Shown: in pieces, positions 2 to 18,297 of the stretch
Numbering within the stretch: the stretch's first letter is position 1
Layout: the number at the start of each line of letters is the position of its first letter
Source of the DNA: a virus
Lineage: Duplodnaviria; Heunggongvirae; Uroviricota; Caudoviricetes
Virus record (IMG/VR): IMGVR_UViG_3300042890_004094
Strand: one strand, 5' to 3'
DNA: 64,000 bases
The notes under the pieces: model-generated
What the model was told of the DNA's origin: nothing
What the model saw: only the letters and a program-made list of their open reading frames with translations
Database searches by the model: none
Made by a program: the position numbers and the translations under genes

Positions 2-112
2 CCTGATCAAGTCAATAAAAGTACAGATGGAATGCTCACAGTAAATTACATTGAAGTTCTAGTTGCAAAGATACAGGAACTGGAGAATAGAATAAAACAA
101 TTGGAGAAATAA
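2..112 (+). CDS. C-terminal 36 codons of a gene that starts left of the window (partial)
   Basis: Open frame from position 2 translating ...IQELENRIKQLEK, ending TAA at 110-112 that overlaps the next ATG (TAATG). Confidence 0.4.
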   Translation, partial: PDQVNKSTDGMLTVNYIEVLVAKIQELENRIKQLEK

Positions 113-2028
113 TGGCTTGGATAGATCTTGCAGATAATCAAATGGTAAGCTTTACAGATGCACAAGGTGGTGGTTTTACACTACTTTCAGGTCAAAGTTC
201 GCTGAACTCAAACCAGTGTATGACTAAGGCTGATGCTTTAGGAAAGTATGACTTAGTTACTGCTAGTATGAGTGCATATCAGGACAATCAATTAGTTCCT
301 AAAATTACATGGGTTGCAAATTTGACAAACGGTTTTTGGGAATTAATAATTGATGTCACTAATCCCGGACAAAAATTTGGATTTAACATACCAACTGGTG
401 GATCACCTAGTATTAATATTGATTGGGGAGATACTAATACGTCAAATGTTACAAGTATAGGATTTGTAGAAAATACTTATGCTACACCGGGTACTTATTC
501 AGTAAAAACTTCCGGAAGTGCGTCTAGTATTAGTATTGCTTTAGTAACCGGTAATTGTGGACCATTGGTATTAAGTACATCTAAAATATCTGGAATAAGT
601 GGTTTGGGATCACTGCCAGAGTTATTCAAAGGATGTACTAATTTAACAAGTATTCCTTCAGATTTATTTAGTGATCTTACTGCGGTTCAAAATTTTTATG
701 GAACGTTTGTGGGTTGTACATCTTTAACTAGCATTCCTGGAAACCTATTTACTAACAATGTAAATGCTCTCCTTTTTAATTATACATTCTGGAATTGTAC
801 AGGTTTAACTGGTAGTATACCTGCAGGTTTATTTGATAATTGTCCGTCAGTAAATTCGTTCCAAGCCACATTCTATAATTGTACAGGTTTAACTGGTAGT
901 ATACCTGCAGGTTTATTTGATAATTGTCCGCTTGTTACAAGATTTGATCAAACATTCTCTAATTGTTCAGATTTAACTGGTATACCTACTGGTTTATTTG
1001 ATAATAATGTACTTGTGGAACTTTTTGTTTTGACATTTGCTTATTGTACATCTTTAACTAGTATACCTTCAGGTTTATTTGATAATTGCCCGGCTGTTAC
1101 AATGTTTTCACAAACATTCGCTGGTACAGGTTTAACTGGTAGTATACCTGTCGATTTATTTGATAATAATGTAAACGTTTACACTTTTTCTGGTGCATTC
1201 GCGCAGTGTGTATCTTTAACTAGCATACCTTCAGGTTTATTTGATACTAATTCAAATGTACTCGATTTTAGTTTTTTATTCAATGGTTGTTTCTCATTAG
1301 ATAGCATACCTGGGGGTTTATTTGATAATAATGAACTTGTTACAAATTTTTCTGGTGTATTTCAAAATTGTACATCTTTAACTAGCATCCCTGTGGGCTT
1401 ATTTGATAATAATGTACTTGTGGACAATTTTCAACAAGCATTCTATACTTGTTCAGATTTAACTGGAAGTATACCAACAGGTTTATTTGATAATAATGAA
1501 CTTGTTACAAATTTTTCTGCGACATTCAGGGATTGTACATCTTTAACTAGTATACCTACAGGTTTATTTGATAATAATGAACTTGTTATAAATTTTAGTT
1601 ATACATTTAATAACTGTGCTTCTTTAACTAGTATACCTGCGGGATTATTTGATAATAATGTAAATGTTACAACATTCCTAGCGATATTCTCAAGTTGTGT
1701 AAATTTGACTACAGTTCCTAGTAATTTATTTGTACCACTTTCTTCTTCTTCCATTAATTTTAATAGTGTATTTAGAGATTGCCGTAGCTTGGTACAGACT
1801 CCTGATATATTTGGTACTTCATATTCTACAACGTTCTTAAATAAAAATGTAAACTTCGGATCGGCATTTGAATTAGATAACTCTTACTTGGGTGCTACTA
1901 TTGGAGTAGCACCCGAATTATGGTCATTTGATTATGGTACCGGTTCTGCTACTAAAACTGATTGTTGGCAAGGTCATAGTACATCTTCCGTATCTAATTA
2001 TGCGTCAATACCAGGAGTATGGACATAG
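112..2028 (+). CDS. BspA-type leucine-rich-repeat protein
   Basis: 638-aa ORF with about 16 tandem ~23-aa units of the form C-T-S-L-T-S-I-P-x-G-L-F-D-N-N; near-identical 69-nt DNA repeats, e.g. 799-849 vs 868-918. Confidence 0.8.
   Translation: MAWIDLADNQMVSFTDAQGGGFTLLSGQSSLNSNQCMTKADALGKYDLVTASMSAYQDNQLVPKITWVANLTNGFWELIIDVTNPGQKFGFNIPTGGSPSINIDWGDTNTSNVTSIGFVENTYATPGTYSVKTSGSASSISIALVTGNCGPLVLSTSKISGISGLGSLPELFKGCTNLTSIPSDLFSDLTAVQNFYGTFVGCTSLTSIPGNLFTNNVNALLFNYTFWNCTGLTGSIPAGLFDNCPSVNSFQATFYNCTGLTGSIPAGLFDNCPLVTRFDQTFSNCSDLTGIPTGLFDNNVLVELFVLTFAYCTSLTSIPSGLFDNCPAVTMFSQTFAGTGLTGSIPVDLFDNNVNVYTFSGAFAQCVSLTSIPSGLFDTNSNVLDFSFLFNGCFSLDSIPGGLFDNNELVTNFSGVFQNCTSLTSIPVGLFDNNVLVDNFQQAFYTCSDLTGSIPTGLFDNNELVTNFSATFRDCTSLTSIPTGLFDNNELVINFSYTFNNCASLTSIPAGLFDNNVNVTTFLAIFSSCVNLTTVPSNLFVPLSSSSINFNSVFRDCRSLVQTPDIFGTSYSTTFLNKNVNFGSAFELDNSYLGATIGVAPELWSFDYGTGSATKTDCWQGHSTSSVSNYASIPGVWT
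649..1750 (+). repeat. Tandem ~69-bp coding repeats (LRR units) inside the 112..2028 gene
   Basis: Repeated tgtac/agatttaactggtagtatacctgcaggtttatttgataat... units visible by eye. Confidence 0.7.
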
Positions 2029-2122: not shown

Positions 2123-2133
2123 CATATTTTGTA

Positions 2134-2216
2134 GTGAGCAAGGGAATCGAACCCTATACATCTAAACGTACGCACTGCTTTCCAGGCAGACCCTATCACC
2201 ATCAAGGATTACTCAC
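2134..2216 (-). tRNA. tRNA-Ser(GGA), type II
   Basis: D-arm identical to previous tRNA; anticodon loop CTGGAAA; T-arm GGGTTCGATTCCC. Confidence 0.6.
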
Positions 2217-2226
2217 TATGTTGTTG

Positions 2227-2313
2227 CGGAGAAAACAGGGCTCGAACCTGCACACCAGTTTCCCGATACCGGTTTTCAAGACCGGGGCGATACCAATTAC
2301 GCTTTACTTCTCC
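2227..2313 (-). tRNA. tRNA-Ser(TGA), type II
   Basis: Reverse complement GGAGAAG...CCGGT-CTTGAAA-ACCGG...GGTTCGAGCCC...TTTCTCC. Confidence 0.7.
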
Positions 2314-2324
2314 AAGTAATTTAG

Positions 2325-2408
2325 AAGAGAGTGTGGGACTCGAACCCACAAAGGTATTACCCTTTACTAGTTTTCAAAACTAGGCCTTCATCCAGCCAGT
2401 TACTCTCC
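2325..2408 (-). tRNA. tRNA-Ser(TGA) second copy, type II
   Basis: Reverse complement GGAGAGT...CTAGT-TTTGAAA-ACTAG...GGGTTCGAGTCCCAC...ACTCTCT. Confidence 0.6.
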
Positions 2409-2417
2409 ATATATTTG

Positions 2418-2489
2418 TGATTCCAGAGGGAATCGAACCCCCACCTGATCGTTCGTAGCGACCTATCCTATCCGTTAAACGATGGAACC
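2418..2489 (-). tRNA. tRNA-Arg(ACG)
   Basis: Reverse complement GGTTCCA...GGTCG-CTACGAA-CGATC...GGGGGTTCGATTCCC...TGGAATC. Confidence 0.7.
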
Positions 2490-2496
2490 AATTAAA

Positions 2497-2536
2497 AACA
2501 AAAAACCCACAAACTTTGAAGTCTGTGGGTTTCATA
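2497..2536. terminator. Hairpin with flanking T/A runs (factor-independent terminator candidate; minus-strand reading gives stem then TTTTTTGTTTTT)
   Basis: aacccacaaac-tttgaa-gtctgtgggtt preceded on the plus strand by aaaaacaaaaaa. Confidence 0.5.
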
Positions 2537-2553
2537 CTAATTTTTTATATCAA

Positions 2554-2631
2554 TTATGAACACAACAGAACCTCCCTCAAATTACTTGAGCGACTAGACG
2601 AACTTGACGATGTTGTGATAATTGTTTTCAT
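2554..2631 (-). CDS. Micro-ORF (25 aa, MKTIITTSSSSSSRSSNLREVLLCS) directly fused to the conserved promoter-like motif; may instead be a small RNA
   Basis: ATG immediately follows TTTTAATATATAAATAAT on the minus strand; terminated by the hairpin at 2497-2536; a related copy lies at 3695-3805. Confidence 0.25.
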   Translation of the reverse strand: MKTIITTSSSSSSRSSNLREVLLCS

Positions 2632-2636
2632 ATTAT

Positions 2637-2653
2637 TTATATATTAAAATTTT
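2637..2653 (-). promoter_or_regulatory. Conserved AT-rich promoter-like motif (minus-strand reading AAAATTTTAATATATAA)
   Basis: Member of a TTTTAATATATA family that recurs upstream of at least 10 genes in this window. Confidence 0.45.
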
Positions 2654-2675
2654 ATTCTTTGTTTTTATTTATTTG

Positions 2676-2809
2676 ATAGAAAGGTGGGACTCGAACCCAC
2701 AACCACGGCTTTAACAGAGCGAAGTAACTTATTTCATTGCTACTAAGAGTTTCTTAGAGAAAGACTGACTAAGTATGATTACGTGCTCTACCAATTGAGC
2801 TACTTTCTA
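2676..2809 (-). tRNA. tRNA-like gene interrupted by a ~58-nt insertion (possible intron); anticodon region reads TCATAC (possibly CAT)
   Basis: Canonical 5' half TAGAAAG-TA-GCTC-AATTGGTA-GAGC and canonical 3' half GTGGG-TTCGAGT-CCCAC-CTTTCTA form a perfect 7-bp acceptor, but are separated by about 58 extra nt; no 3' anticodon-stem partner found at the canonical place. Confidence 0.5.
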
Positions 2810-2813
2810 TTTG

Positions 2814-2884
2814 CACGTCGACTAGGGCTCGAACCTAGAACATTGGTTTTGGAGACCAAGATGATACCATTTCACTATCGACGT
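2814..2884 (-). tRNA. tRNA-Trp(CCA)
   Basis: Reverse complement ACGTCGA...TTGGT-CTCCAAA-ACCAA...CTAGGTTCGAGCCCTAG-TCGACGT. Confidence 0.7.
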
Positions 2885-2891
2885 GTTTTGG

Positions 2892-2965
2892 GTTGACAGA
2901 CGGGACTTGAACCCGCAATCCCTTGGTTCACAACCAAGTGCTTTAACCAATTAAGCTACCATCAA
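2892..2965 (-). tRNA. tRNA-His(GTG)
   Basis: Reverse complement TTGATGG...CTTGG-TTGTGAA-CCAAG...GCGGGTTCAAGTCCCGT-CTGTCAA, discriminator C. Confidence 0.65.
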
Positions 2966-2967
2966 AG

Positions 2968-3042
2968 TGACCCCGGTGAGACTCGAACTCACAACCCCCG
3001 CATTAAAAGTGCGGTGCTCTAAACCAATTGAGCTACGAAGTC
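2968..3042 (-). tRNA. tRNA-Lys(TTT)
   Basis: Reverse complement GACTTCG-TAGCTCAATTGG...CCGCA-CTTTTAA-TGCGG...GTGAGTTCGAGTCTCAC-CGGGGTC. Confidence 0.7.
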
Positions 3043-3052
3043 ATTATTATTG

Positions 3053-3124
3053 TGCGGACTGACGGAATCGAACCGACCTCTTAGGGACTTCACTCCTACG
3101 CTAAACCGTCTCAGCTAAATCCGC
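3053..3124 (-). tRNA. tRNA, anticodon uncertain (loop GTGAAGT, possibly GAA/Phe-like; imperfect stems)
   Basis: Reverse complement GCGGATT...GGTTCGATTCC...AGTCCGC has a perfect acceptor and T-loop; the anticodon stem has a mismatch. Confidence 0.5.
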
Positions 3125-3130
3125 AATTTT

Positions 3131-3205
3131 GGGTGAAAGACGGGGATCGAACCCGCGACAACTTGAACCACAATCAAGCACTCTACCACTGAGCTACAAT
3201 CACCA
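3131..3205 (-). tRNA. tRNA-His(GTG)-like second copy (G-1 and C73 present, two T-T mismatches in acceptor stem; possibly degenerate)
   Basis: Reverse complement G-GTGATTG-TAGCTCAGTGGTAGAG...CTTGA-TTGTGGT-TCAAG...GCGGGTTCGATCCCCGT-CTTTCAC-C. Confidence 0.5.
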
Positions 3206-3211
3206 TGTTTG

Positions 3212-3284
3212 TGGACCCTCAGGGAATCGAGCCCTGTCCTTTGGATTTTCAGTCCAACGTACGCACCAGCTATACGAAAGGTCC
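3212..3284 (-). tRNA. tRNA-Phe(GAA)
   Basis: Reverse complement GGACCTT...TTGGA-CTGAAAA-TCCAA...CAGGGCTCGATTCCCTG-AGGGTCC. Confidence 0.65.
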
Positions 3285-3294
3285 ATTATATTTG

Positions 3295-3367
3295 CACAAG
3301 CCAAGGGAGTCGAACCCTTTCCATCCGAGGTTTTGGAGACCTGGTGCATACCATTATGCTGACCTGT
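3295..3367 (-). tRNA. tRNA-Trp(CCA)-like second copy (one mismatched pair in anticodon stem)
   Basis: Reverse complement ACAGGTC...CAGGT-CTCCAAA-ACCTC...AAGGGTTCGACTCCCTT-GGCTTGT; D-loop AATGGTAT shared with the other Trp gene. Confidence 0.5.
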
Positions 3368-3376
3368 ATATATTTG

Positions 3377-3469
3377 AAGAAAGAAGAGTATCGAAACTCT
3401 TAGGGGATATCTCCACGACTAGCCTACCTCTCGGATTCGAACCGAGACCTCTTCAACCTGACTTTCTTT
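3377..3469 (-). tRNA. Aberrant 93-nt tRNA-like element (candidate Ser-CGA type II tRNA with unusually long variable region, or a tRNA remnant)
   Basis: Perfect 7-bp acceptor AAGAAAG/CTTTCTT; internal CTCGG-TTCGAAT-CCGAG stem-loop and a second T-arm-like AAGAG-TTTCGATA-CTCTT; does not fold canonically. Confidence 0.35.
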
Positions 3470-3471
3470 TG

Positions 3472-3544
3472 TGATCCCGGTGGGGCTCGAACCCACAACC
3501 TTCTGATTAAAAGTCAGAAGCTCCACCAATTGAGCTACGAAATC
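3472..3544 (-). tRNA. tRNA-Lys(TTT) second copy
   Basis: Reverse complement GATTTCG-TAGCTCAATTGGTGGAGC...TCTGA-CTTTTAA-TCAGA...GTGGGTTCGAGCCCCAC-CGGGATC. Confidence 0.65.
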
Positions 3545-3549
3545 ATTAG

Positions 3550-3622
3550 TTCCCCCGCCGGGAGTCGAACCCGGCCCCATAGGTTAAAAGCCTATTGCCT
3601 ACTACCAGTTTGCTACGAGGGA
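3550..3622 (-). tRNA. tRNA-Lys(TTT) third copy
   Basis: Reverse complement TCCCTCG...ATAGG-CTTTTAA-CCTAT...GGCCGGGTTCGACTCCCGGC-GGGGGA. Confidence 0.6.
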
Positions 3623-3631
3623 TTATAAAAT

Positions 3632-3670
3632 AAAAAAACCCGAACTTTTTTATAAGTTCGGGTTTACGTT
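3632..3670. terminator. Strong hairpin with flanking A/T runs (bidirectional factor-independent terminator candidate upstream of the tRNA array)
   Basis: aaaaaaacccgaacttttttataagttcgggtttacgttt. Confidence 0.6.
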
Positions 3671-3895: not shown

Positions 3896-4090
3896 TTATT
3901 TTAATTTATTTTTAATTTTCTCTGCAATCTTCTCTAAACTTGATTTAGAAGTCTCTTTCTGTTTTGGAAATCTACCATGATTTCCCATACTATCATAGTC
4001 AGTACATTCATACGCACTAGGTGACGGTAGTCCACTATAGTGACAGAATTCTTCTTCACTAAGTATTTCTTTTTTATCTTCTTTTTTCAT
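3896..4090 (-). CDS. Hypothetical small protein (64 aa)
   Basis: ORF only; no recognisable motif. Confidence 0.35.
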   Translation of the reverse strand: MKKEDKKEILSEEEFCHYSGLPSPSAYECTDYDSMGNHGRFPKQKETSKSSLEKIAEKIKNKLK

Positions 4091-4140: not shown

Positions 4141-7100
4141 TTATCGTTTTAGTGTAAAATGTCCTTTATGTATTCTACCATCATTTCTGTAAGCAACGAA
4201 CCAGTAATCATTAGAAAATATCTGATTTCCATTGTAGGTTCCATCCCATCCTTGGCTAGTTGAATTAAATGATGTAATTATTTTACCATAACGATCATAA
4301 ATAATAACTTTAAAATCAGGTTCATTTTCAGAATCTTTAATTCTCCAATAATCATTATATCCATCATTATTGGGAGTAAAGAATTTGTCATAGTAAAGCA
4401 GCCAAATAACTTGACTAGTGATCCCACAATTAGCTTTATCTCTTACATAAACAGTGTATAATCCGGTAGTTAAATTATCAAAGTAGTTTTCATTTTGGTA
4501 TGTAACATTATCTAGAGAATATTCAAAGGTTCCATTACCAGATGTAATTACTGTAATAGTGTTTTCTCTAGCGGTCCAATCTGATATTTCAATACTTTCA
4601 ATAACTGGTGGTCCAGAAATGATTACATTAATACTCTGACTATTACTACAAGCCAATCCATTATAAGTATTTGTGGCGGTAACTGTTAGATTTGTTATAC
4701 CAATATCAGTAATACTAATAGATGGAGTTGTTTCACCATTAGACCAAATATAGGTAGTTGAAGACAAATTATTAGATGTAGCATCAATAATAGTAGGATT
4801 GGTTGTGCAATTCAAATAGTTTTGACTTAGATTCAAATTTGGTATTTTTCCCACAATTAAATTAAATGTTCTTAATTCATAGCAATTAGGTAAAGAGTTA
4901 AGTATAATTTTAGCATAAATAAGTTGTGGATTTATAGAAGGATTAAAACTTACTAAGTTTGTAATTTGATTAGTACCACTTTGTGCATCACTTAACGTAG
5001 TATAATAGGTTATAGTATAATTACTTACTATTTGTGTTCCTAGAATTACAGAATTCTGTTGTGATAAATTAAAAGTTTCATTATTAGTAATAATAGTTTT
5101 ACATTGAAGTAAATCACTAGGATTATTTATCAAAATAAAAGACTCAAGTATACTTACATCAAAAAATCGGTTAACTATATTACCACAATTATCTTCTATT
5201 TGAAAAAGGTAAATTGCTGGATCTAAATTAGAAAAAGTATTTGAAGTACCATTATCAAAAAAGAAAGGTAAACCATTTTTTTGTATAAGAGTATATGTCA
5301 ATGGTGCAGTTCCACTTGCCTCAACAAAAACATCTAAAGCACCGTTTGTAGAGCAAGGTAATCGATAAACATCAATAAATTCTAAAGATTCATTATAACT
5401 TAATGGTTCTAATATTTCAATACAATTTTTATCGGCATTATTTACGTCTGTAGAATTCCAGTCACTTCCATTTTGGAATGATAAAAAAGAACGAACAATT
5501 CGAAAATCGCCATTAGAACTAAAATTAAAATTGGTAGTATTGTTTATTAGGACAATTGAGTTATTTGTATTTGGAATAGTACCATCAGTATAAACTAGAT
5601 TTGTACTAGGATTTCCCCAAGTATTAGTAACCGGATCAATCAATTTTTGTAACCAAAAAGTTTCATTTGATGTTCCATTACTCACAAAGTCTAGTGCAAT
5701 ATCAAAAGAACCACAGTTAGGAACCAATGAAAAATTGGAAGAAGTGATTGTATAACCTTGTAAAATTATGTTAGTAGTATTAGTTAAGTTACATTCATCA
5801 GTTCCAATAAAAGTATAATTTCCTGCAGGAAGATTATTCATATAAAAAATACCATCAGGTGCAATGTTATAAGACACATTTAATGGAAGATTAAAATTAA
5901 ACGTACTAGGAGCTGCTGTAATAATAATAGATGTCAATTTTGAATTCAAACTTTCAATTTTAACTGCACTAGTATTCAAGTCACAACCATTTCTTATAGA
6001 ATTAGATAAACCTTTATCTACATAGGCAGGAACAACAACTGTAATAGGTGTTAAAATATCATTACAAGTATTTGTTAATTCAATTATATAATTTCCTAAC
6101 GGAACTGGATTTAATATAATTGTACCATTATTAATTAAAGAGGTTATATTATGTGGTAAAGTGAAAGGATAATCAGATGGTGCAGAGGTTACTAATCCAG
6201 TTGTGATAATATATCCGGGTATGCTTATATTTATCTTTCCTGTTGTAGTCAGACATCCATTGTGTGATCCTGTTACACTTGGAATAGGTGGTCGATTTAT
6301 TATCGTAAAAGAAATATTTTTAGTATTACCACAAGAATCTGTAATAGTAGCATCATAAGTTCCTATGGGTGTAGGTAATGTTGTATTTCCAAAAGACACA
6401 CTGTTTTGATTATAGGGACCTGGATAGGAGTCATTAAAAACTAGAGGATTAAAACCAGTTGGAAAAGAATTAAAGTTTATAGTATAAGGAGGATAAAAAT
6501 TTGAAAGATTAAATGTAAAAAAGTTTTTGTTACAATCTAAACGGGTTGTAGTGTTGGTTAGGTTTATTCCATTGTTTACAACAAAATTTGTTGAAGAATA
6601 GGTTGAATTACATGCATCAGTAATAGATATTGAGTAACTAAAAGTTTGATTAATGTAATTTGTCATGTTTTGTACCAAATTTTGTTGTGTTAAACCTCCA
6701 GAATTTAAAGTACTATTCAATATAATTGGTACACCTCCAGGTGGTAAAATAGTGTAAGTAATGTTTAACGGATAACCAATAACAGTTCCAGTTGCAGCAG
6801 TTAAGGTATTAGTAACTGAAACTAAGTTACAATTAGATAATTGAGTAATTTGAGGTTGTCCAATTGTAATACCAGTTGTGTTTTGAACGGTTGTAAAAGT
6901 TGTTACAACTCCAATTCCACAATTATCAAAAACTCTAATCTTATAAACACCGATAGGTAAATTAGAAAAAGTATTGGAACTCTGTGATGGAAACAATAAA
7001 GGTCCATTAAATATTTCATAAGAAGCAGGTGTTCCGGTCAGTGTATTTACAGTAATTGTACTTGTGTTAGAACATGCTTGATTTAAAGTTTGAATGTTAT

Positions 7101-7422
7101 AAGTTAAGGAAACAACTGAGTTTACTATTGTTACATCTTGTTGTTGCTCTGTAGTGGTTGTTCCGAAAGTTTCTCTTGCAATAACACGGTAGTCTCCTGC
7201 AACTAATCCATTGATAGTTGTAGAATTTGTTGTTGCAAATGGTGTATCTGTATTGGGTAATTTATAGATGATGTACTGAATACTTCCACCAACAATAGTA
7301 TTGGTTGTATTAAATGTTAAACTACCATTACCTGAACAAGTTTCATTGGTAGTTGCTACTGAAAGGTTGAACCCAAAACAAAATTGGGTCATAAAAAAGA
7401 TAAGATAAATTAGGCTTTTCAT
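4141..7422 (-). CDS. Large secreted Asn/Thr-rich repeat protein with N-terminal signal peptide and C-terminal type-B T9SS sorting domain (gliding-motility-associated C-terminal domain)
   Basis: N-terminus MKSLIYLIFFMTQFCFGF; C-terminus ...FFTPNNDGYNDYWRIKD...YDRYGKII...GWDGTYNG...YWFVA...; many C-x-N Ig-like repeats. Confidence 0.8.
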   Translation of the reverse strand: MKSLIYLIFFMTQFCFGFNLSVATTNETCSGNGSLTFNTTNTIVGGSIQYIIYKLPNTDTPFATTNSTTINGLVAGDYRVIARETFGTTTTEQQQDVTIVNSVVSLTYNIQTLNQACSNTSTITVNTLTGTPASYEIFNGPLLFPSQSSNTFSNLPIGVYKIRVFDNCGIGVVTTFTTVQNTTGITIGQPQITQLSNCNLVSVTNTLTAATGTVIGYPLNITYTILPPGGVPIILNSTLNSGGLTQQNLVQNMTNYINQTFSYSISITDACNSTYSSTNFVVNNGINLTNTTTRLDCNKNFFTFNLSNFYPPYTINFNSFPTGFNPLVFNDSYPGPYNQNSVSFGNTTLPTPIGTYDATITDSCGNTKNISFTIINRPPIPSVTGSHNGCLTTTGKINISIPGYIITTGLVTSAPSDYPFTLPHNITSLINNGTIILNPVPLGNYIIELTNTCNDILTPITVVVPAYVDKGLSNSIRNGCDLNTSAVKIESLNSKLTSIIITAAPSTFNFNLPLNVSYNIAPDGIFYMNNLPAGNYTFIGTDECNLTNTTNIILQGYTITSSNFSLVPNCGSFDIALDFVSNGTSNETFWLQKLIDPVTNTWGNPSTNLVYTDGTIPNTNNSIVLINNTTNFNFSSNGDFRIVRSFLSFQNGSDWNSTDVNNADKNCIEILEPLSYNESLEFIDVYRLPCSTNGALDVFVEASGTAPLTYTLIQKNGLPFFFDNGTSNTFSNLDPAIYLFQIEDNCGNIVNRFFDVSILESFILINNPSDLLQCKTIITNNETFNLSQQNSVILGTQIVSNYTITYYTTLSDAQSGTNQITNLVSFNPSINPQLIYAKIILNSLPNCYELRTFNLIVGKIPNLNLSQNYLNCTTNPTIIDATSNNLSSTTYIWSNGETTPSISITDIGITNLTVTATNTYNGLACSNSQSINVIISGPPVIESIEISDWTARENTITVITSGNGTFEYSLDNVTYQNENYFDNLTTGLYTVYVRDKANCGITSQVIWLLYYDKFFTPNNDGYNDYWRIKDSENEPDFKVIIYDRYGKIITSFNSTSQGWDGTYNGNQIFSNDYWFVAYRNDGRIHKGHFTLKR

Positions 7423-7485
7423 ATTATAAACTATTAATTACAAATATACAAATATATTTTAAAATACAATAATTTATAAACATAT

Positions 7486-7752
7486 TTAAAGTCTTTTAAT
7501 ATCTGGTAATGTTTTACTTGAGTTAAGCATATTACGAATTGCTGCTTTCTTTAAGTCAGTCAATTTTTTACCTTTTAGAGATTCTTCTACAATCATATGG
7601 TATGTCAACATTGATATACTATAACTATTGAAGTTTGTTTCTTCATTTTTAATGAGTTCATCATAATTCGCAATAGGCATTGTTTCTTTGAACAATTGTC
7701 TGTGAATATCACGTATTATTTTTTCCTCTTTACTAATTTTGGTCATTTCCAT
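7486..7752 (-). CDS. Hypothetical protein (88 aa)
   Basis: ORF, AT-rich codon usage consistent with neighbours. Confidence 0.5.
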   Translation of the reverse strand: MEMTKISKEEKIIRDIHRQLFKETMPIANYDELIKNEETNFNSYSISMLTYHMIVEESLKGKKLTDLKKAAIRNMLNSSKTLPDIKRL

Positions 7753-7798: not shown

Positions 7799-8002
7799 AT
7801 GCCGGCTCAATCGAAACAGCAACTAAAGTATATTTATGCAATGCGTAATAAATATAAAAACAAGAAAAGTGCTCCTAAACATATGAAGTGGGTATTTAAC
7901 AAAGATTGGACCCAAGACGTTAAAGCCAGTGGGTTACCAACCAAAGTTAAAAGTTTTCAAACTTATGTAAGTGAAAACTATGATGCTTCGACTAAGAAGT
8001 AA
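7799..8002 (+). CDS. Hypothetical small basic protein (67 aa)
   Basis: Lys-rich ORF; 3' end overlaps the convergent tyrS by 25 nt. Confidence 0.4.
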   Translation: MPAQSKQQLKYIYAMRNKYKNKKSAPKHMKWVFNKDWTQDVKASGLPTKVKSFQTYVSENYDASTKK

Positions 8003-9234
8003 CTTTTCTTACCTCTTTGTAGTATGATAAACTTATCATTTATCAAATCAACATCTGTTACGATGTAATCCTCTTCTCTTTTTATTTTATTTATTGCAAC
8101 TGAATTTTCTTTTAAAGCTCTTCTAGCTTCATTATTTGATTTTAAGAAACCTGTTTTAAATAGAATGTCTGTCATTGTAATGCCTACAAGAATTTCTTCC
8201 ATAGGAACTTTCGCTTGTGGTATTCCATTAAATACATCTAAGAATAATTCTTCATCAAGTAAGTTTAAATCTCCACCATTAAATAAAATGTTAGAAGCTT
8301 CTAGTGCTTTTTCAAACTCTTGCTGACCGTGAACCATAATAGTTATTTCTCTTGCTAATTTTTTTTGTAACAAAAATAAGTTCTTTGCTTTATTATGTTC
8401 TTCTATTAAATTATCAATAGTTTCTTTATCTAAAAATGTAAAGATTTTAATGTATTTCTCTGCATCATTATCATCGGTATTTATCCAAAATTGGTAAAAC
8501 TTGTACACAGAGGTCTTATCTTTATCTAACCATATATTTGTACCTCCTTCAGATTTTCCGAACTTAGAACCATCCGATTTAGTTAGTAAAGGACATGTCA
8601 TAGCAAATGCTTCCCTACCAGGATTCATTTTGTGAATTAGTTCAGTTCCTGTTGTAATGTTACCCCATTGATCTGAACCACCCATTTGTAATAAGCAGTT
8701 ATGTTCTTTATTTAGATGGTAGAAATCGTATCCTTGAATCAACTGGTACGTAAATTCTGTGAAAGACATTCCTTCACCTTCAATACGATTTTTCACAGAT
8801 TGTTTAGATAACATGTAATTTACAGTAATTCTTTTACCAATGTCTCTTACAAAGTCTATGAAACTAAATTTTGACATCCAATCGTAGTTATTTACTACAG
8901 GAGTATCACCTAAAAATCTTGTTAGTGTATTTCTAATACCTTCGACATTTTTATTAAGTGTTTCTTCGTCTAATAGATTTCTTTCATTTGACTTACCAGA
9001 GGGGTCACCGATCATACCAGTGGCACCTCCAACAAGTGCGATAGGATTGTGTCCAAAATTCTTCATATGTTTTAAAAGAATGATTGGAACTAAACTACCG
9101 ATATGTAGAGAATCTGACGTTGGATCAAAACCGATATAAGAGGTGGTGGCTTCTTTTAAAAGTTGAGCCTCCGTTCCTGGTATTATATCGTGTACCAACC
9201 CACGCCATTTTAATTCTTCTACTATATTTTTCAT
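7978..9234 (-). CDS. tyrS: Tyrosyl-tRNA synthetase, bacterial type
   Basis: GFDPTSDSLHIGSLVP (HIGH-region), GGATGMIGDP, GGSDQWGNIT and KFGKSEGG (KMSKS-like) motifs; C-terminal S4-like region. Confidence 0.9.
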   Translation of the reverse strand: MKNIVEELKWRGLVHDIIPGTEAQLLKEATTSYIGFDPTSDSLHIGSLVPIILLKHMKNFGHNPIALVGGATGMIGDPSGKSNERNLLDEETLNKNVEGIRNTLTRFLGDTPVVNNYDWMSKFSFIDFVRDIGKRITVNYMLSKQSVKNRIEGEGMSFTEFTYQLIQGYDFYHLNKEHNCLLQMGGSDQWGNITTGTELIHKMNPGREAFAMTCPLLTKSDGSKFGKSEGGTNIWLDKDKTSVYKFYQFWINTDDNDAEKYIKIFTFLDKETIDNLIEEHNKAKNLFLLQKKLAREITIMVHGQQEFEKALEASNILFNGGDLNLLDEELFLDVFNGIPQAKVPMEEILVGITMTDILFKTGFLKSNNEARRALKENSVAINKIKREEDYIVTDVDLINDKFIILQRGKKSYFLVEAS

Positions 9235-9638
9235 TATGCCAATACTTCTTTAATAACTTCTGATACAACTTTTCTGTCTACTTGTAAAGTAGCAAACTCT
9301 TTCATAATTCCACCAACATTGGTAATCCCTGATGCAACAAGTGCACTAACTTTTACAACAACATCTTCTCTTGTCATAGCAGCTGGAAGTAAAGCTTCAA
9401 CCATTTCTAATTGAGTTTTAGATTCTTCGTCACCAGAAGTTGCGATAACTTCTTTAAGAGATTTTGCAGTTTTATTAAGAATTTTAATTACCTCTGCATC
9501 AGAAAGACAATCTACTCCTGTATTTTTTTCAATAGTTTGGATCTCTCCTTTCACTACAGAAAGTAAGTTCTTTGCTACGACATTTCTTTCTTTGAAAGCA
9601 GTCATGTAGTCTTTGCTAATTTGTTCTTTTAAATTCAT
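9234..9638 (-). CDS. YqeY/GatB-domain protein
   Basis: 134 aa, MNLKEQISKDYMTAFKERN... resembles the YqeY family; stop overlaps the tyrS start as TAATG. Confidence 0.65.
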   Translation of the reverse strand: MNLKEQISKDYMTAFKERNVVAKNLLSVVKGEIQTIEKNTGVDCLSDAEVIKILNKTAKSLKEVIATSGDEESKTQLEMVEALLPAAMTREDVVVKVSALVASGITNVGGIMKEFATLQVDRKVVSEVIKEVLA

Positions 9639-9875
9639 AATATTTATTTTTAATAATTTCTAAAAAAAATACCTTTTTCATCTATTTTCTATATTTAATA
9701 TCAAGGTAGTTCACTGTTTTTCATAAAAGGTATTAGAAAATTCATTTACCAGCTACTTACTACCATAAACACTAACTATAACTATGTGACCAAAACTTAT
9801 TCTATAACAGGTCAGTTGTAGTAGCTCATTATTTATTGTGCAAATATACAATAAAGTTTCAATTTAAAAAATATA

Positions 9876-9894
9876 TTTTAATATATAGTTTATG
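9876..9894 (+). promoter_or_regulatory. Conserved promoter-like motif TTTTAATATATAGTTTATG fused to the start codon
   Basis: The 13-mer TATATAGTTTATG, including the ATG, is identical at 9882-9894, 28096-28108, 46307-46319 and, on the minus strand, at 11908-11920. Confidence 0.5.
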
Positions 9895-11565
9895 AAATAC
9901 TTAAAATTATACGAAGGTTTTGAATCTGATAGGATTAGTGCAATACTTTCATTTCTAAATAAAAAGATAAAGAGTGATTATCCAGCAAGAGAGTTTTTAA
10001 AAGTATTAAAAATACTTGCTGATAAATTTGATTTCCCACTAAGTACATTGAGTGATAAAGAAATACAATACCTATCAGTAAATAAAGCTTTAGCTGTTGG
10101 TAAAGGTGAAGAAGCAATGAACCCATCTGGTATTTATTGTATTAAGTATTGGTTTTCATTAGAAAAAGGTTATTTATGTAGTACTGGAACTGGAAATAAA
10201 ACTATGGACTATAATAAGTATAATTCTTATAGTGGTGTTATGATGAGTAATGGTGAAGGTTTAGATCAATCTCATTTAGCTTACTTGACTAGAGAATATA
10301 ATATAAGTGGTGTTATTACTCCGACTAGATTAGGAGATTTAAGAACTGGTGATAAAGTAGTAATGGTTTGTGGTGATGATTTCAATGGAGATCCTGCTTA
10401 TTTAACTTTTGGTGAAATATATGCCGATAATAGAAGAAATGATGATGAAATTCAATATTATTTTTATCAAAATGATCATGAAGGTTCAGATCCTGGTTCA
10501 ACTAGAAATAATATTACATTACCAGATAGATATAATCTTTATGCGGGTAATGCAGCATATCAATATGCTTGGTCATTGGGAAGTTCAGACGATCCATCAG
10601 ATGATCATTGTATGATACATAAAGTAATAATTGATGAAAACCCATTAAGATTTAAAGATGAAGATTTAGATAAAATAAATAAAACAGAAGAATCTGTTTG
10701 GGATTTCAATTTACCATTAGATGGAACTACTTTGGAAGAATGGAATAACAGAAAAACAGGAACTTTTAATAAAGTAAATAAAGAAGCAAACTTTGCAATC
10801 GTTCTTTTTCTCGATGATATAATAATTAAAAATGTTGATGATACTACATCTGATATTATAAAAAGAAGAAAATCTGGTAGAAAAGACGCATTAGCTTTAA
10901 AGAAACCAGAGGATATTAGAAAAGAAAATGTTGAAAGGTATTTAACTACTTTATTTAAAAAATTAGGAATTGAACAAGATAAACAAGAATTTAAAAATCT
11001 TAACTCAGTTGTTTTATCATCAATTATAGGAGATTATTTTATCATTGCACTTTATAATAGTAGTGCTTATATAGATAGATTATCAGACTTTATTACTTAT
11101 TTGTATAGACTTATGTCAGATAGTGAAGATTCATATAATTTTGAAAAAACATATGAATTGTTTAAGACTATTAAGAAAAGACGTTTAAAACAAACTACTG
11201 CTTACTCTAATGGTATTAAAGTTATTAAAGATAGTGATAATCAAAATACAGAAAGAATGTCTAATGTAATTGACAGAATAACTAATATAGGTCAAATTTT
11301 ATCAAATTCAATTAAAAATAGAAATATAGAAACTATTGAAGATCTTAAATCAATACAAGTTAGATTAGCATCATTATATGAATTAGTACAAGATGATATT
11401 TTTATACTTTCTAGAAATACTAAAAATGTTCTTATAAACTTAGATGGTGATACTTCTACATTAAAAGTAATTATGAGTAGATTCAGATATAGTGAAGAAG
11501 AGTATAATAGTGATATTAAAAGATTAGATAAACTTGAAAAGGTATTTAAAGATCTTTTAAGATAA
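9892..11565 (+). CDS. Hypothetical protein (557 aa), N-terminus MKYLKLYEGF
   Basis: Long ORF; shares the MKYLK-x-YE-x-F N-terminal motif with several other ORFs. Confidence 0.6.
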   Translation: MKYLKLYEGFESDRISAILSFLNKKIKSDYPAREFLKVLKILADKFDFPLSTLSDKEIQYLSVNKALAVGKGEEAMNPSGIYCIKYWFSLEKGYLCSTGTGNKTMDYNKYNSYSGVMMSNGEGLDQSHLAYLTREYNISGVITPTRLGDLRTGDKVVMVCGDDFNGDPAYLTFGEIYADNRRNDDEIQYYFYQNDHEGSDPGSTRNNITLPDRYNLYAGNAAYQYAWSLGSSDDPSDDHCMIHKVIIDENPLRFKDEDLDKINKTEESVWDFNLPLDGTTLEEWNNRKTGTFNKVNKEANFAIVLFLDDIIIKNVDDTTSDIIKRRKSGRKDALALKKPEDIRKENVERYLTTLFKKLGIEQDKQEFKNLNSVVLSSIIGDYFIIALYNSSAYIDRLSDFITYLYRLMSDSEDSYNFEKTYELFKTIKKRRLKQTTAYSNGIKVIKDSDNQNTERMSNVIDRITNIGQILSNSIKNRNIETIEDLKSIQVRLASLYELVQDDIFILSRNTKNVLINLDGDTSTLKVIMSRFRYSEEEYNSDIKRLDKLEKVFKDLLR

Positions 11566-11910
11566 TAGATATAAATCATGTTGTCTCGCTTCTAACTCTG
11601 TTAAAAGATGAACACACTCTCTTCTTAGATCCTTTAACTTTAAAAAGTCTTCCGTATTATTAGTTTTATTTAATCGTGAATTAAGATTATCAATTTCAAC
11701 CGTTATTAAATCTTTCATTAAACTCATTTCCTTACTAACCTCTTCTTTTAAATCAAGTGCTAATGATTTAAAATACGGATTCGCCATGATAACACTTTTA
11801 TAATTATTAGAACTAAAGTTCTTCATAAGTCTTTTGAGTGTATCAATAGCTTGTTCCTCAGTAGTTGATAGATGTAGCTTATCGAGATATTCTAACAAGG
11901 TCAATTTCAT
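11557..11910 (-). CDS. Hypothetical protein (117 aa)
   Basis: ORF preceded by the conserved motif. Confidence 0.5.
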   Translation of the reverse strand: MKLTLLEYLDKLHLSTTEEQAIDTLKRLMKNFSSNNYKSVIMANPYFKSLALDLKEEVSKEMSLMKDLITVEIDNLNSRLNKTNNTEDFLKLKDLRRECVHLLTELEARQHDLYLLS

Positions 11911-11921
11911 AAACTATATAT
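11908..11921 (-). promoter_or_regulatory. Conserved motif (minus-strand ATATATAGTTTATG) fused to the start codon; contains the TAG stop of smpB
   Basis: Reverse complement of cataaactatatat. Confidence 0.45.
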
Positions 11922-12345
11922 TTCGTTGCATCTCTCTAGTAAGGTCTCTTTCTTTGATAGTTTCACGTTTATCCCAAGTTTTCTTACCTTTGGCAACAGC
12001 TATTTTAATTTTAATTCTATTATTCTTAATAAACATACCAAGTGGAATTGCAGTTATGCCTTTATCTTCCAGTTTTCTTTTGATACGAGTGATTTCTTTT
12101 TTATTTAAAAGAAGTTTCTTATCACGATTTTCTTCGTGTTTATCTAAAGTATGTGCTGATTTATAAGCTGCAACTTTTAGATTTTTAATCCACACTTCAT
12201 TATCTTTTATGTAAATGAACGCATCAACCATGGTAACATTTCCCATTCTAACGGACTTTACTTCACTACCAACCAATATTATTCCGCAGTCAAATTCCTC
12301 TATAAAAGTATATTCGTAACGGGCTCTTCTATTTAATGCTATCAT
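11914..12345 (-). CDS. smpB: SsrA-binding protein SmpB
   Basis: 143 aa; ALNRRARYEY...GSEVKS...IAVAKGKK..DKR..IKERD pattern aligns with bacterial SmpB. Confidence 0.85.
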   Translation of the reverse strand: MIALNRRARYEYTFIEEFDCGIILVGSEVKSVRMGNVTMVDAFIYIKDNEVWIKNLKVAAYKSAHTLDKHEENRDKKLLLNKKEITRIKRKLEDKGITAIPLGMFIKNNRIKIKIAVAKGKKTWDKRETIKERDLTREMQRNI

Positions 12346-18224: not shown

Positions 18225-18260
18225 TTAACAAATATACAAAATAAAACCTAAAGAATAAAC

Positions 18261-18280: not shown

Positions 18281-18297
18281 AAATCAAAAATCATAAA

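What the first reader, a model, noticed from the sequence alone, without database searches (positions are those of the whole stretch)
4141..7422. T9SS C-terminal sorting domain on a 1093-aa adhesin-like protein next to the tRNA array
The C-terminus (FFTPNNDGYNDYWRIKD...GWDGTYNG...YWFVA) matches the type-B T9SS / gliding-motility C-terminal domain, which is restricted to Bacteroidota. An N-terminal signal peptide is also present. Either the element infects a Bacteroidota host and exploits T9SS to display or secrete a protein, or this segment is host-derived.
Basis: partly seen in the sequence, partly recalled or inferred. Interest (0 to 1): 0.6.

Follow-up and report, generated by a model that had tools for sequence, protein, structure and literature searches.

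The report
Huge phage carries stolen Flavobacterium surface protein
A very large bacteriophage of freshwater Flavobacterium has captured, and keeps under selection, a complete host gene for a 1093-residue surface protein that can only be exported by the host's type IX secretion system, which suggests the phage redecorates the surface of the cell it infects.

Summary
ORF 4141-7422 (-) encodes 1093 aa. It has a Sec-type signal peptide, about 11 predicted Ig-like beta-sandwich modules with 20 invariant cysteines, and a terminal type-B T9SS sorting domain (TIGR04131 105.9 bits, cutoff 35; CHU_C 44, cutoff 27).

The window is not a bacterial chromosome. Its large ORFs match, in the same order, only the 634-735 kb 'Mahaphage' genomes, Lak phages and phage PAU. 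The same gene neighbourhood recurs on independent contigs carrying proteins that sit on contigs of up to 402-415 kb.

The gene itself came from the host. It is a full-length orthologue of a roughly 1100-aa protein found alone in ordinary Flavobacterium chromosomal settings. The phage copies form one clade (bootstrap 100) inside the Flavobacterium tree, next to the F. cheonanense/chungnamense/koreense group (75% identity). A 624-kb relative has the same backbone but lacks the gene, so it was inserted between an 88-aa ORF and the tRNA array. GC content matches the phage. dN/dS is 0.16-0.19 overall and 0.06-0.08 in the sorting domain.

The likeliest mechanism is Sec export, T9SS translocation and surface retention on a host PorP/SprF-type shuttle. 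This is inferred, not shown. Two published Mahaphage genomes also encode type-B cargo. Verdict: a new variant of a known kind, of moderate interest.

The parts
4141..7422 (-). Complete gene for the 1093-aa host-derived type-B T9SS substrate (stop codon included)
   Evidence: ORF listing and translation. Full-length orthologues at 47-94% identity. dN/dS 0.16-0.19 among phage copies.
7372..7422 (-). Signal peptide, residues 1-17 (MKSLIYLIFFMTQFCFG), Sec/SPase I type
   Evidence: Read directly from the sequence. Low-pLDDT N-terminal helix. The FGF junction is conserved in orthologues, with F18 invariant. No predictor was run.
4399..7368 (-). Passenger region, residues 19-1008: about 11 tandem Ig-like beta-sandwich modules. 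Invariant cysteines are spaced as one pair per module for most modules (C117/C168, C198/C271, C297/C364, C390/C453, C480/C544, C570/C667, C690/C746, C774/C847, C872/C925).
   Evidence: AF2 model with pLDDT 84.9, all-beta. Invariant columns of the 61-sequence alignment. Foldseek top hit is GhpA, 9flp_A, E 2.7e-25. Disulfide pairing is inferred, not measured.
4144..4392 (-). Type-B T9SS C-terminal sorting domain, residues 1011-1093
   Evidence: TIGR04131 105.9 bits against cutoff 35. CHU_C 44 bits against cutoff 27. dN/dS 0.06-0.08 among phage copies. All positions conserved at 90% or more in bacterial orthologues are retained.
7441..7456 (-). Two tandem TATATTTG motifs matching the Bacteroidota -7 promoter consensus TAnnTTTG, 19-34 nt upstream of the ATG. 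Candidate promoter only.
   Evidence: The motif is not enriched across the window (127 found, 108 +/- 11 expected), so this is weak evidence.
7486..7752 (-). 88-aa ORF directly upstream. It belongs to the phage backbone and marks the upstream edge of the insertion slot.
   Evidence: Conserved in L002 and L020 at 84-86% and in the 624-kb relative L024 at 68%. Absent from the bacterial loci L016 and L019.
3896..4090 (-). 64-aa ORF directly downstream. It is present only where the T9SS gene is present.
   Evidence: Found in L002 and L020 at 86-98% and absent from L024.
3636..3665 (-). Terminator-like hairpin (12-bp stem plus T run) between the 64-aa ORF and the tRNA array
   Evidence: 2 found in the region, 1.4 expected. 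The sequence is shown.
2131..3622 (-). Array of 13 tRNA genes (Lys x3, Phe x2, Trp x2, His x2, Ser x3, Arg). It marks the downstream edge of the insertion slot.
   Evidence: ARAGORN. Homologous arrays follow the gene in L002 and L020. In L024 the array follows the alternative cargo.
7978..9234 (-). Phage-encoded tyrosyl-tRNA synthetase. It is a backbone marker and an independent host indicator.
   Evidence: Pfam tRNA-synt_1b, E 1.4e-78. Closest copies lie on contigs of 402-624 kb, then 69-71% identity to Tenacibaculum/Flavobacterium.

Best explanation
The window is part of a huge phage genome, probably larger than 400 kb and related to the 634-642 kb Mahaphage genomes. Its host is a freshwater Flavobacterium.

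Into a variable slot between a conserved 88-aa ORF and its tRNA array, this phage lineage acquired a whole Flavobacterium gene. That gene encodes an 'orphan' type-B T9SS substrate, meaning one with no adjacent porP/sprF gene.

Proposed mechanism (inferred, not shown): the protein is made during infection and crosses the inner membrane through Sec. Its roughly 11 Ig-like modules fold and form disulfides in the periplasm. The C-terminal domain is recognised by the host T9SS translocon and handed to a host PorP/SprF-family shuttle, which keeps it on the outer surface of the infected cell.

The phage protein keeps almost every residue conserved in the host orthologues. The most likely role is therefore to replace or boost the host's own copy of this surface, adhesin-type protein while host gene expression is compromised during a long infection. 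This would be a host-function-maintenance gene like other phage auxiliary genes. The exact benefit (attachment, cell-cell contact or exclusion of other phages) is not resolved.
For: Phage identity:
- ORFs 18298-21504, 21514-25788, 38353-44088 and 46317-50960 match only LR745206.1, LR756502.1, the other genomes above 634 kb, Lak phages and PAU.
- They are collinear with LR745206.1 298.7-325.2 kb.
- Al-Shayeb 2020 places these genomes in Mahaphage with predicted Bacteroidetes hosts.

Host origin of the gene:
- About 110 full-length orthologues are known, including named Flavobacterium species.
- The bacterial copies have housekeeping neighbours and no PorP/SprF gene.
- The phage clade is monophyletic at 100/100 bootstraps. 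It groups with P0004-7 at 100/100, and that cluster contains F. cheonanense, F. chungnamense and F. koreense.

Insertion: the 624-kb relative L024 has the same backbone and tRNA array but carries a methyltransferase and two small ORFs in place of this gene.

Retention:
- Gene GC is 29.3% against 29.0% for the window.
- dN/dS is 0.16-0.19 overall and 0.06-0.08 in the sorting domain.
- Only 2 bacterially conserved positions have changed.

Export logic:
- The sorting domain scores three times the curated cutoff.
- A signal peptide and 20 invariant cysteines are present.
- Paillat 2025 shows that orphan type-B substrates use an unlinked SprF-like shuttle and that the type-B domain dictates surface location.

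Recurrence: LR756502.1 and LR745206.1 each encode other type-B cargo at 50.1 and 45.8 bits, one with 13 SprB repeats.
Against: - No expression, secretion or localisation data exist.
- No PorP/SprF-like gene was found in the 64-kb window. The rest of the phage genome was not available, so dependence on a host shuttle is assumed.
- Shuttle recognition is specific. The phage sorting domain is only 73-80% identical to its nearest bacterial relatives, so compatibility with the actual host's shuttle is untested.
- The function of the bacterial orthologue is itself unknown. 'Adhesin' rests on fold class only.
- The promoter motif is at chance level across the window.
- The host is inferred from gene phylogenies, not from a CRISPR spacer or an isolate.
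Confidence: 0.6

Rival explanations
1. The export route is the same (Sec, then T9SS, then surface), but the role is defensive for the phage. The extra surface protein would mask or displace T9SS-dependent receptors, or compete for shuttle and gliding-track capacity. The infected cell would then become refractory to superinfection by other Flavobacterium phages.
For: In Flavobacterium columnare and F. psychrophilum, phage resistance maps to gliding-motility and T9SS genes (titles and abstracts of 10.1101/2020.10.02.323337 and PMC9804748). T9SS-dependent surface components therefore affect phage adsorption. Bellas 2020 proposed a superinfection or competition role for type-A T9SS cargo in 'Cryophage'. 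Al-Shayeb 2020 notes that surface-localised huge-phage proteins may alter host susceptibility.
Against: The phage copy is nearly unchanged at conserved positions relative to the host orthologue. This fits simple functional replacement better than a new blocking function. Nothing shows that this family is a phage receptor.
Confidence: 0.2
2. The protein is a virion component: an Ig-like decoration or fibre on the huge capsid or tail that is used for adhesion. On this reading the T9SS domain is a relic of the host origin.
For: Strings of Ig-like domains are common in phage structural and decoration proteins. BFVD fold matches include virion structural proteins and Hoc-like proteins.
Against: Virions assemble in the cytoplasm. 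This protein keeps a cleavable Sec signal peptide and 20 invariant cysteines typical of periplasmic or extracellular folding. The sorting domain is the most strongly constrained part among phage copies, with dN/dS 0.06-0.08, so it is not a relic. The gene lies among translation genes and tRNAs, not in a structural module.
Confidence: 0.07
3. The gene is not on a phage. The window would then be a Flavobacteriaceae chromosome, a reduced symbiont genome or megaplasmid, or a chimeric assembly joining host and phage DNA.
For: The window carries many cellular-type genes: TyrRS, SmpB, YqeY, thioredoxin, NAD-ligase, CoaE, DnaJ and Sir2. The protein's nearest named relatives are all bacterial.
Against: - The junctions on both sides (88-aa ORF/gene and gene/64-aa ORF/tRNA array) recur in independent assemblies from ENA, JGI, Logan and NCBI.
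- Gene GC equals window GC.
- The cellular-type genes are divergent or shortened versions. The largest ORFs match only huge-phage genomes, in the same order.
- Duplicated tRNAs are atypical of reduced symbiont genomes.
- None of the bacterial neighbours of the orthologues is present.
Confidence: 0.03
4. The gene is a recent, functionless hitch-hiker picked up from the host and on its way to decay.
For: It sits in a variable slot next to a tRNA array, and relatives carry different cargo there.
Against: The gene is intact in all copies despite dS of 0.17-0.29 between them. dN/dS is 0.16-0.19. Base composition is fully adjusted to the phage, whereas bacterial copies are 31-43% GC. It is 25% diverged from the closest bacterial relative, so the transfer is not recent.
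Confidence: 0.03

Closest known systems
Orphan type-B T9SS substrates of Flavobacterium johnsoniae (Fjoh_1123, Fjoh_1720, Fjoh_4934) handled by the unlinked SprF-like shuttle Fjoh_1677 (Paillat et al. 2025, PMC12618676)
   Same: Both have an N-terminal signal peptide, a large putative-adhesin passenger and a TIGR04131-type C-terminal domain. Neither has an adjacent porP/sprF gene, either in the phage or in the Flavobacterium orthologues.
   Different: This one is encoded on a phage. Orthology to any of the three F. johnsoniae proteins was not established. The shuttle partner is unknown.
The roughly 1100-aa Flavobacterium orthologous group annotated 'T9SS type B sorting domain-containing protein' (for example F. 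cheonanense WP_344817147.1, F. chungnamense WP_345091110.1, F. psychrotolerans, F. sangjuense)
   Same: Collinear over the full length at 47-75% identity. All 20 invariant cysteines and all conserved sorting-domain positions are kept.
   Different: The genomic setting is a phage backbone rather than a housekeeping chromosome. GC is 29% against 31-43%. The phage copies form a separate, well-supported clade.
Phage-encoded T9SS cargo in 'Cryophage' (Bellas et al. 2020, PMC7468147)
   Same: In both, a phage of a Bacteroidota host encodes proteins with T9SS sorting domains, presumed to use the host secretion system.
   Different: Cryophage cargo carries type-A domains on enzymes and a PA14 protein, and is hypervariable between variants. 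Type-A cargo uses the PorV route. Here the domain is type B (PorP/SprF shuttle route, surface-retained adhesin class). The gene is a whole conserved host orthologue under purifying selection, and the carrier is a huge phage.
Type-B cargo in the published Mahaphage genomes LR756502.1 (1670 aa: 13 SprB repeats, PKD, CHU_C) and LR745206.1 (832 aa: ALK/LTK glycine-rich, Ig_7, PKD, CHU_C)
   Same: The phage clade is related, the class of sorting domain is the same (TIGR04131 50.1 and 45.8 bits), and neither has an adjacent PorP/SprF gene.
   Different: The passengers are unrelated, since whole-protein tblastn found no match. The sorting domains are only 32-34% identical. The genomic locations differ. 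These look like independent acquisitions.
SprB gliding adhesin and GhpA grappling-hook filament (T9SS-associated Ig-domain strings of Bacteroidota)
   Same: All are long strings of beta-sandwich modules. GhpA fragments are the best solved-structure matches, E 2.7e-25 and 6e-19.
   Different: No Pfam SprB-repeat match at E up to 1. The protein is much shorter than SprB (6497 aa by my recollection) or GhpA. TM-scores are low (0.12-0.15) because only the repeated fold matches. No evidence of a role in gliding or predation.

Membership tests
T9SS type-B substrate (TIGR04131 / PF13585 CHU_C class) | The sorting domain scores above the curated threshold | tested here: met
   TIGR04131 105.9 bits against cutoff 35, covering profile positions 3-85 of 85. 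PF13585 44 bits against cutoff 27.
T9SS type-B substrate (TIGR04131 / PF13585 CHU_C class) | The domain lies at the extreme C-terminus of the protein | tested here: met
   The match spans residues 1011-1093 of 1093.
T9SS type-B substrate (TIGR04131 / PF13585 CHU_C class) | An N-terminal Sec signal peptide | tested here: met
   MK, a 13-residue hydrophobic core, then C-F-G|F, read. A low-confidence helix at residues 2-10. The junction is conserved in orthologues. This was judged by inspection; no SignalP-type tool was available.
T9SS type-B substrate (TIGR04131 / PF13585 CHU_C class) | A cognate PorP/SprF-family shuttle, often encoded directly downstream | tested here: not met
   No PorP_SprF Pfam hit among the 41 window ORFs scanned. 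The five unscanned ORFs of 100 aa or more are 107-131 aa, too small to be a shuttle. None is next to the bacterial orthologues. Adjacency is not obligatory: 3 of 12 F. johnsoniae substrates are orphans served by an unlinked shuttle. The rest of the phage genome and the host genome were not examined.
T9SS type-B substrate (TIGR04131 / PF13585 CHU_C class) | The five conserved sorting-domain motifs A-E required for secretion (Paillat 2025) | tested here: inconclusive
   The motif residues are shown only in a figure that is not held as text. The invariant blocks FTPN-D, W1026, D1043-G-K, W-G at 1059-1061, D1072-W-F and G1087-F are all present, but they were not mapped one-to-one onto A-E.
T9SS type-B substrate (TIGR04131 / PF13585 CHU_C class) | T9SS-dependent secretion or surface anchoring shown experimentally | not testable with these tools
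   This needs reporter-fusion secretion assays in wild-type and T9SS-mutant Flavobacterium.
Flavobacterium ~1100-aa orthologous group (PF26689 'FIDD' + CHU_C in the precomputed annotation) | Full-length collinear homology with conserved length and the invariant cysteine framework | tested here: met
   99-100% query coverage at 47-94% identity, lengths 1080-1165 aa. 20 invariant cysteines are shared. Only 2 conserved positions are altered. My Pfam copy did not report PF26689, so that label comes from the precomputed annotation.
Mahaphage-clade huge phage (applies to the window as a whole) | Homology and shared gene order with curated Mahaphage genomes | tested here: met
   Four large ORFs match LR745206.1 collinearly at 35-52% aa identity, and 75.7% nt identity for one gene. 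They also match LR756502.1, LR756501, LR756503, LR756504 and Lak phages. phrog_29329 matches at E 3e-90.
Mahaphage-clade huge phage (applies to the window as a whole) | Placement by large-terminase phylogeny (the criterion of Al-Shayeb 2020), and presence of capsid, portal and terminase genes | not tested
   No terminase or capsid gene was recognised in the 64-kb window. The rest of the genome was not available.
SprB-type gliding adhesin | SprB repeats (PF13573) and loading onto the gliding track through SprF | tested here: not met
   No PF13573 match at E up to 1. No sprF gene is adjacent. By contrast, the LR756502.1 protein has 13 SprB repeats.
Host-derived auxiliary ('AMG-like') phage gene | Nested within the host phylogeny, composition adjusted to the phage, purifying selection in the phage lineage | tested here: met
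   Bootstrap 100 for the phage clade and for phage plus the Flavobacterium sister group. GC 29.3% against 29.0%. dN/dS 0.16-0.19.

The most novel reading that the evidence does not exclude
Huge phages of Bacteroidota systematically carry repertoires of type-B T9SS surface proteins, captured repeatedly from hosts. The examples seen here are this Ig-array protein, a 13-SprB-repeat protein in LR756502.1 and a PKD/Ig_7 protein in LR745206.1. With these proteins they would reprogram the adhesive or gliding surface of the infected cell. One possible purpose is to keep or bring the infected cell into contact with surfaces and fresh hosts, which would offset the poor diffusion of very large virions. 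That would be a virus-directed change in host cell-surface behaviour using a host secretion and motility machine.
Probability: 0.15. Interest if true: 0.75.

Novelty: new variant of a known kind. Interest (0 to 1): 0.45.

Why it matters
T9SS cargo on a phage was described once, for type-A domains, and was called a 'unique occurrence' (Bellas 2020). I found no report of type-B cargo on phages in the library searched.

Type-B substrates are the surface-retained adhesin class. Their C-terminal domain decides where on the cell surface, or on the gliding track, they end up. A phage that supplies one can therefore change what the infected cell sticks to.

The case is unusually clean. A whole conserved host orthologue is involved, its insertion site can be seen by comparison with a relative that lacks it, and selection on the secretion signal is measurable.

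It also gives a genus-level host prediction (freshwater Flavobacterium, near the F. cheonanense group) for an uncultured phage probably larger than 400 kb. And it offers a directly testable construct: the phage sorting domain fused to a reporter in F. johnsoniae or a relative.

Tried and rejected
1. Whole-protein tblastn against 50,697 GenBank phage records found no match. An IMG/VR scan with the whole protein also found none. The passenger family is therefore unknown in catalogued phages. Only the sorting domain alone found LR756502.1 and LR745206.1.

2. I looked for a porP/sprF gene next to the bacterial orthologues and found none. I also looked in the window and next to the Mahaphage cargo genes and found none.

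3. I considered TAnnTTTG enrichment as a host signal. The motif is not enriched (127 found against 108 +/- 11 expected), so I dropped it as evidence.

4. The sigma-70-type promoter scan was at chance level.

5. I asked whether P0004-P0007 (69-75% identity) are also phage copies. They are not. The P0004 cluster contains cultured Flavobacterium species. L019 and L016 lack the phage flanking ORFs and share only this gene with the window.

6. I scanned IMG/VR with a sorting-domain alignment to gauge prevalence. It gave 306 confirmed stretches, and in the 80 kept loci 57 of 82 ORFs have the domain at the C-terminus. However, the neighbours checked in two loci showed no hallmark phage genes. I do not count these as established phage cargo.

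7. A search for other type-B domains in the window by six-frame HMM found none. Type-A domains were not found on the ten largest other ORFs.

8. PDB sequence search with the family profile gave no hit.

9. I could not find the meaning of the Pfam label PF26689 'FIDD'.

10. Neofunctionalisation of particular domains was rejected. Identity to bacterial relatives is uniform across modules.


Full report

Yes. An ATG-to-stop ORF of 1093 codons occupies 4141..7422 on the minus strand.
- NCBIfam TIGR04131 (T9SS type B sorting domain) scores 105.9 bits, E 8.6e-31, against a curated cutoff of 35. It aligns profile positions 3-85 of 85 to residues 1011-1093, the very end of the protein.
- Pfam CHU_C scores 44 bits against a cutoff of 27.
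- No type-A model matched.

The N-terminus (MKSLIYLIFFMTQFCFG|FNLSV) reads as a Sec/SPase-I signal peptide. It is the only low-confidence helix in the structure model, and the FGF junction is conserved in orthologues. Thirteen tRNA genes lie just downstream on the same strand, at 2131-3622.

**2. What is the protein?**

An AlphaFold2 model built on 61 homologues has mean pLDDT 84.9. It is all-beta: about eleven Ig-like sandwich modules followed by the C-terminal domain. The family alignment has 20 invariant cysteines, spaced as one pair per module for most modules. I read these as periplasmic or extracellular disulfides, but that is inference.

The best solved-structure matches are fragments of GhpA, the grappling-hook filament of the Bacteroidota predator Aureispira (E 2.7e-25). 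Generic Ig-domain strings follow. TM-scores are low, so only the repeated fold is shared. The family profile finds no PDB sequence. 'Adhesin-like' is thus a fold-class statement, not a demonstrated function.

**3. What is the window?**

It is not a bacterial chromosome.
- GC content is about 29% throughout.
- The window mixes divergent or shortened cellular-type genes with very large ORFs that have no Pfam family. The cellular-type genes include TyrRS, YqeY, SmpB, thioredoxin, an ECF-type sigma factor, NAD-ligase, an S1-domain protein, CoaE, Sir2 and a short DnaJ.
- Those large ORFs match only huge-phage genomes:
  - 21514-25788 matches LR745206.1 (634,780 bp) over its full length at 52%. It also matches LR756502.1, LR756504.1, LR756501.1/LR756503.1 (735,411 bp), Lak phages and Sphingomonas phage PAU gp265.
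  - 18226-21440 is 75.7% identical in DNA to LR745206.1, and the ORF there is phrog_29329.
  - 38353-44088 and 46317-50960 match LR745206.1 and LR756502.1.
- In LR745206.1 the four matches are collinear, spanning 298.7-325.2 kb.

The record lengths correspond to the genomes above 634 kb that Al-Shayeb et al. 2020 place in the 'Mahaphage' clade with predicted Bacteroidetes hosts.

The window's TyrRS has 98%, 89% and 74% relatives on contigs of 415, 402 and 624 kb. Its next matches are Tenacibaculum and Flavobacterium at 69-71%. This is an independent pointer to a Flavobacteriaceae host.

**4. Where did the gene come from?**

A search of 5.8 billion proteins returned about 110 full-length relatives of about 1100 aa. 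Named ones are 'T9SS type B sorting domain-containing protein' from Flavobacterium species at 50-54% identity.

In Flavobacterium genomes the gene stands alone among housekeeping genes, with no porP/sprF gene beside it. The neighbours include uridine kinase, FtsB, methylmalonyl-CoA mutase, an aminotransferase, an SDR and ParAB.

Copies 91-94% identical lie in the window's own neighbourhood on independent assemblies: sigma factor, thioredoxin, SmpB, YqeY, TyrRS, the 88-aa ORF, the gene, a 64/65-aa ORF and then tRNAs.

In a neighbour-joining tree these phage copies form one clade (100 of 100 bootstraps). Its sister group is P0004-P0007 (100 of 100). Grouping with P0004-6 alone is supported at 72 of 100.

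The P0004 cluster is 75% identical to the window protein and contains F. cheonanense, F. chungnamense and F. koreense proteins. Its contigs lack the phage flanking ORFs.

A more distant phage relative, a 623,734-bp contig (L024), has the same backbone up to the 88-aa ORF (68% identical) and the same tRNA array. Between them it carries a methyltransferase and two small ORFs instead of this gene.

The gene, probably together with the 64-aa ORF, was therefore inserted into a variable slot next to the tRNA array in one sub-lineage.

**5. Is it maintained?**

Yes.
- Gene GC is 29.3%, equal to the window at 29.0%. Bacterial copies are 31-43%.
- Among phage copies dS is 0.17-0.29 and dN/dS is 0.16-0.19. 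The sorting domain is the most constrained part, at 0.06-0.08.
- Only two positions that are at least 90% conserved in bacteria differ in the phage clade (P254T, G998N). Identity to bacterial relatives is even across all modules.

This argues for a working protein with an unchanged basic activity and a working secretion signal.

**6. How does it most likely work?**

Shown:
- the sorting-domain class, the signal peptide and the modular beta fold;
- the host origin, the insertion site and purifying selection;
- the phage context.

Inferred: expression in the infected cell, Sec export, disulfide-stabilised folding in the periplasm, T9SS translocation, and capture by a host PorP/SprF-family shuttle that holds it on the surface.

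The last step rests on Paillat et al. 2025. They report the following:
- F. johnsoniae has 12 type-B substrates.
- Three 'orphans' with no adjacent sprF-like gene are served by one unlinked shuttle, Fjoh_1677.
- Shuttle recognition is specific.
- The type-B domain decides the final location, either the gliding track or static foci.

Neither the window nor the bacterial loci encode an adjacent shuttle. The phage protein therefore behaves like an orphan substrate that must borrow a host shuttle.

Because the protein is so little changed, I favour replacement or boosting of the host's own copy during infection. Rivals are receptor masking or superinfection exclusion, a virion role, a host or chimeric origin of the segment, and a decaying passenger gene.
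- Masking or exclusion is plausible, because phage resistance in Flavobacterium maps to gliding and T9SS genes.
- A virion role is disfavoured by the signal peptide, the cysteines and the constrained sorting domain.
- A host or chimeric origin is excluded by the recurrent junctions and the base composition.
- A decaying passenger is excluded by the dN/dS values.

**7. Is it an isolated case?**

The sorting domain alone, searched against 50,697 phage records at E up to 1, hits only LR756502.1 (2 places) and LR745206.1 (3 places).

The best hits are the C-termini of two proteins:
- a 1670-aa protein with 13 SprB repeats, PKD and CHU_C (TIGR04131 50.1 bits);
- an 832-aa protein with a glycine-rich domain, Ig_7, PKD and CHU_C (45.8 bits).

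Neither has a shuttle gene adjacent. Type-B cargo with different passengers thus recurs in this group of huge phages.

An IMG/VR scan with a sorting-domain alignment gave 306 confirmed stretches. Many ORFs there have a signal-peptide-like N-terminus and a terminal domain. Two loci checked showed no hallmark phage neighbours, so I treat this as a lead only.

The only literature precedent I found is type-A cargo in 'Cryophage', called a unique occurrence by its authors. No listed paper linked huge or jumbo phages to type IX secretion.

**8. Verdict**

Both of its alternatives are true in part: a phage of a Bacteroidota host, carrying a host-derived gene.

This is a new variant of a known kind, namely phage-encoded T9SS cargo. 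Here it is of type B, a whole conserved host orthologue, and carried on a huge phage. The mechanism is a well-grounded inference without experimental support. Interest is moderate at 0.45. It would be higher if huge phages prove to use sets of such proteins to control the surface behaviour of infected cells.

Noticed in passing
window 58659-62474 (-): A 1271-aa multi-domain enzyme. It combines a GT1 glycosyltransferase, an Aah/TibC-type autotransporter-adhesin O-heptosyltransferase (TIGR04414 286.5 bits against cutoff 200, residues 713-1073) and a C-terminal methyltransferase. A protein-heptosylating enzyme on a phage that also carries a Ser/Thr/Asn-rich surface protein is suggestive, but no link was tested.
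   Followed up: no
LR756502.1 514378-519390 (L022 4267-9279) and LR745206.1 15115-17613 (L023 6790-9288): Two published Mahaphage genomes encode their own type-B T9SS cargo. One is 1670 aa with 13 SprB repeats and PKD. The other is 832 aa with ALK/LTK glycine-rich, Ig_7 and PKD domains. TIGR04131 scores are 50.1 and 45.8 bits. The tblastn output reports 2 and 3 matching places per genome, and the additional places were not examined.
   Followed up: partly
L026-L105 (IMG/VR contigs): 306 IMG/VR stretches encode type-B sorting-domain relatives. A recurrent 735-820-aa family starts 'MK...SQYCPxLGPDQ' and sits on contigs of up to 229 kb. There are also small proteins of about 185 aa made of a signal peptide plus the domain. 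Neighbours in L061 and L047 gave no hallmark phage hits, so whether these contigs are viral is unverified.
   Followed up: partly
window 13261-14520 (-): A 419-aa ORF with a weak nucleotidyltransferase hit. Its 87-92% identical counterpart in L002 (2286-3488) is annotated PF26128 Gad2, and L024 has one too. From my own knowledge, Gad2 is a phage anti-Gabija protein, so this may be a counter-defence gene.
   Followed up: no
window 2131-3622 (-); L002 13803-14983; L024 13852-17063: The tRNA array varies in size between related phages: 13, 9 and 16 genes. Lys, Trp, Phe and His units are repeated, which suggests tandem duplication. The slot next to it holds different cargo in different relatives.
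   Followed up: partly
window 7978-12345 and 26938-28026: A cluster of translation-related genes: TyrRS, YqeY, SmpB and an S1-domain protein. ARAGORN found SmpB without a tmRNA gene in the window. The phage TyrRS copies are shorter (412-420 aa) than Flavobacteriaceae TyrRS (431-439 aa).
   Followed up: partly
window 112-2028 (+): A 638-aa protein with DUF285 and PARCEL-repeat (surface-protein) matches, just beyond the tRNA array. No T9SS domain was detected on it.
   Followed up: partly
window 44148-46289 (+): The 713-aa ORF has weak Hint/pretoxin-HINT and intein-like similarity at its C-terminus (E 0.0015 and 0.0099, below thresholds). It lies between two giant ORFs that are conserved in Mahaphage genomes.
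   Followed up: no
L016 2499-2573 and 9913-16152: On this contig of unconfirmed origin, whose protein (P0007) is 69% identical to the window's, a tRNA-Arg(ACG) lies about 340 bp upstream of the gene. An MmeI-type restriction-modification gene and RhuM-family genes follow downstream, giving an island-like setting. The phage array also contains tRNA-Arg(ACG). Whether a tRNA-linked island mediated the transfer was not examined.
   Followed up: no
gene 4144-4392 compared with L019 and L016: Between the phage and its closest bacterial relative, the sorting domain is more diverged than the passenger (dN 0.185 against 0.145). Between the two contigs P0004-L019 and P0007-L016 the reverse holds (0.063 against 0.159). 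Within the phage clade the domain is the most conserved part. This may reflect adaptation of the signal to a different shuttle after transfer, or an unsampled donor.
   Followed up: partly
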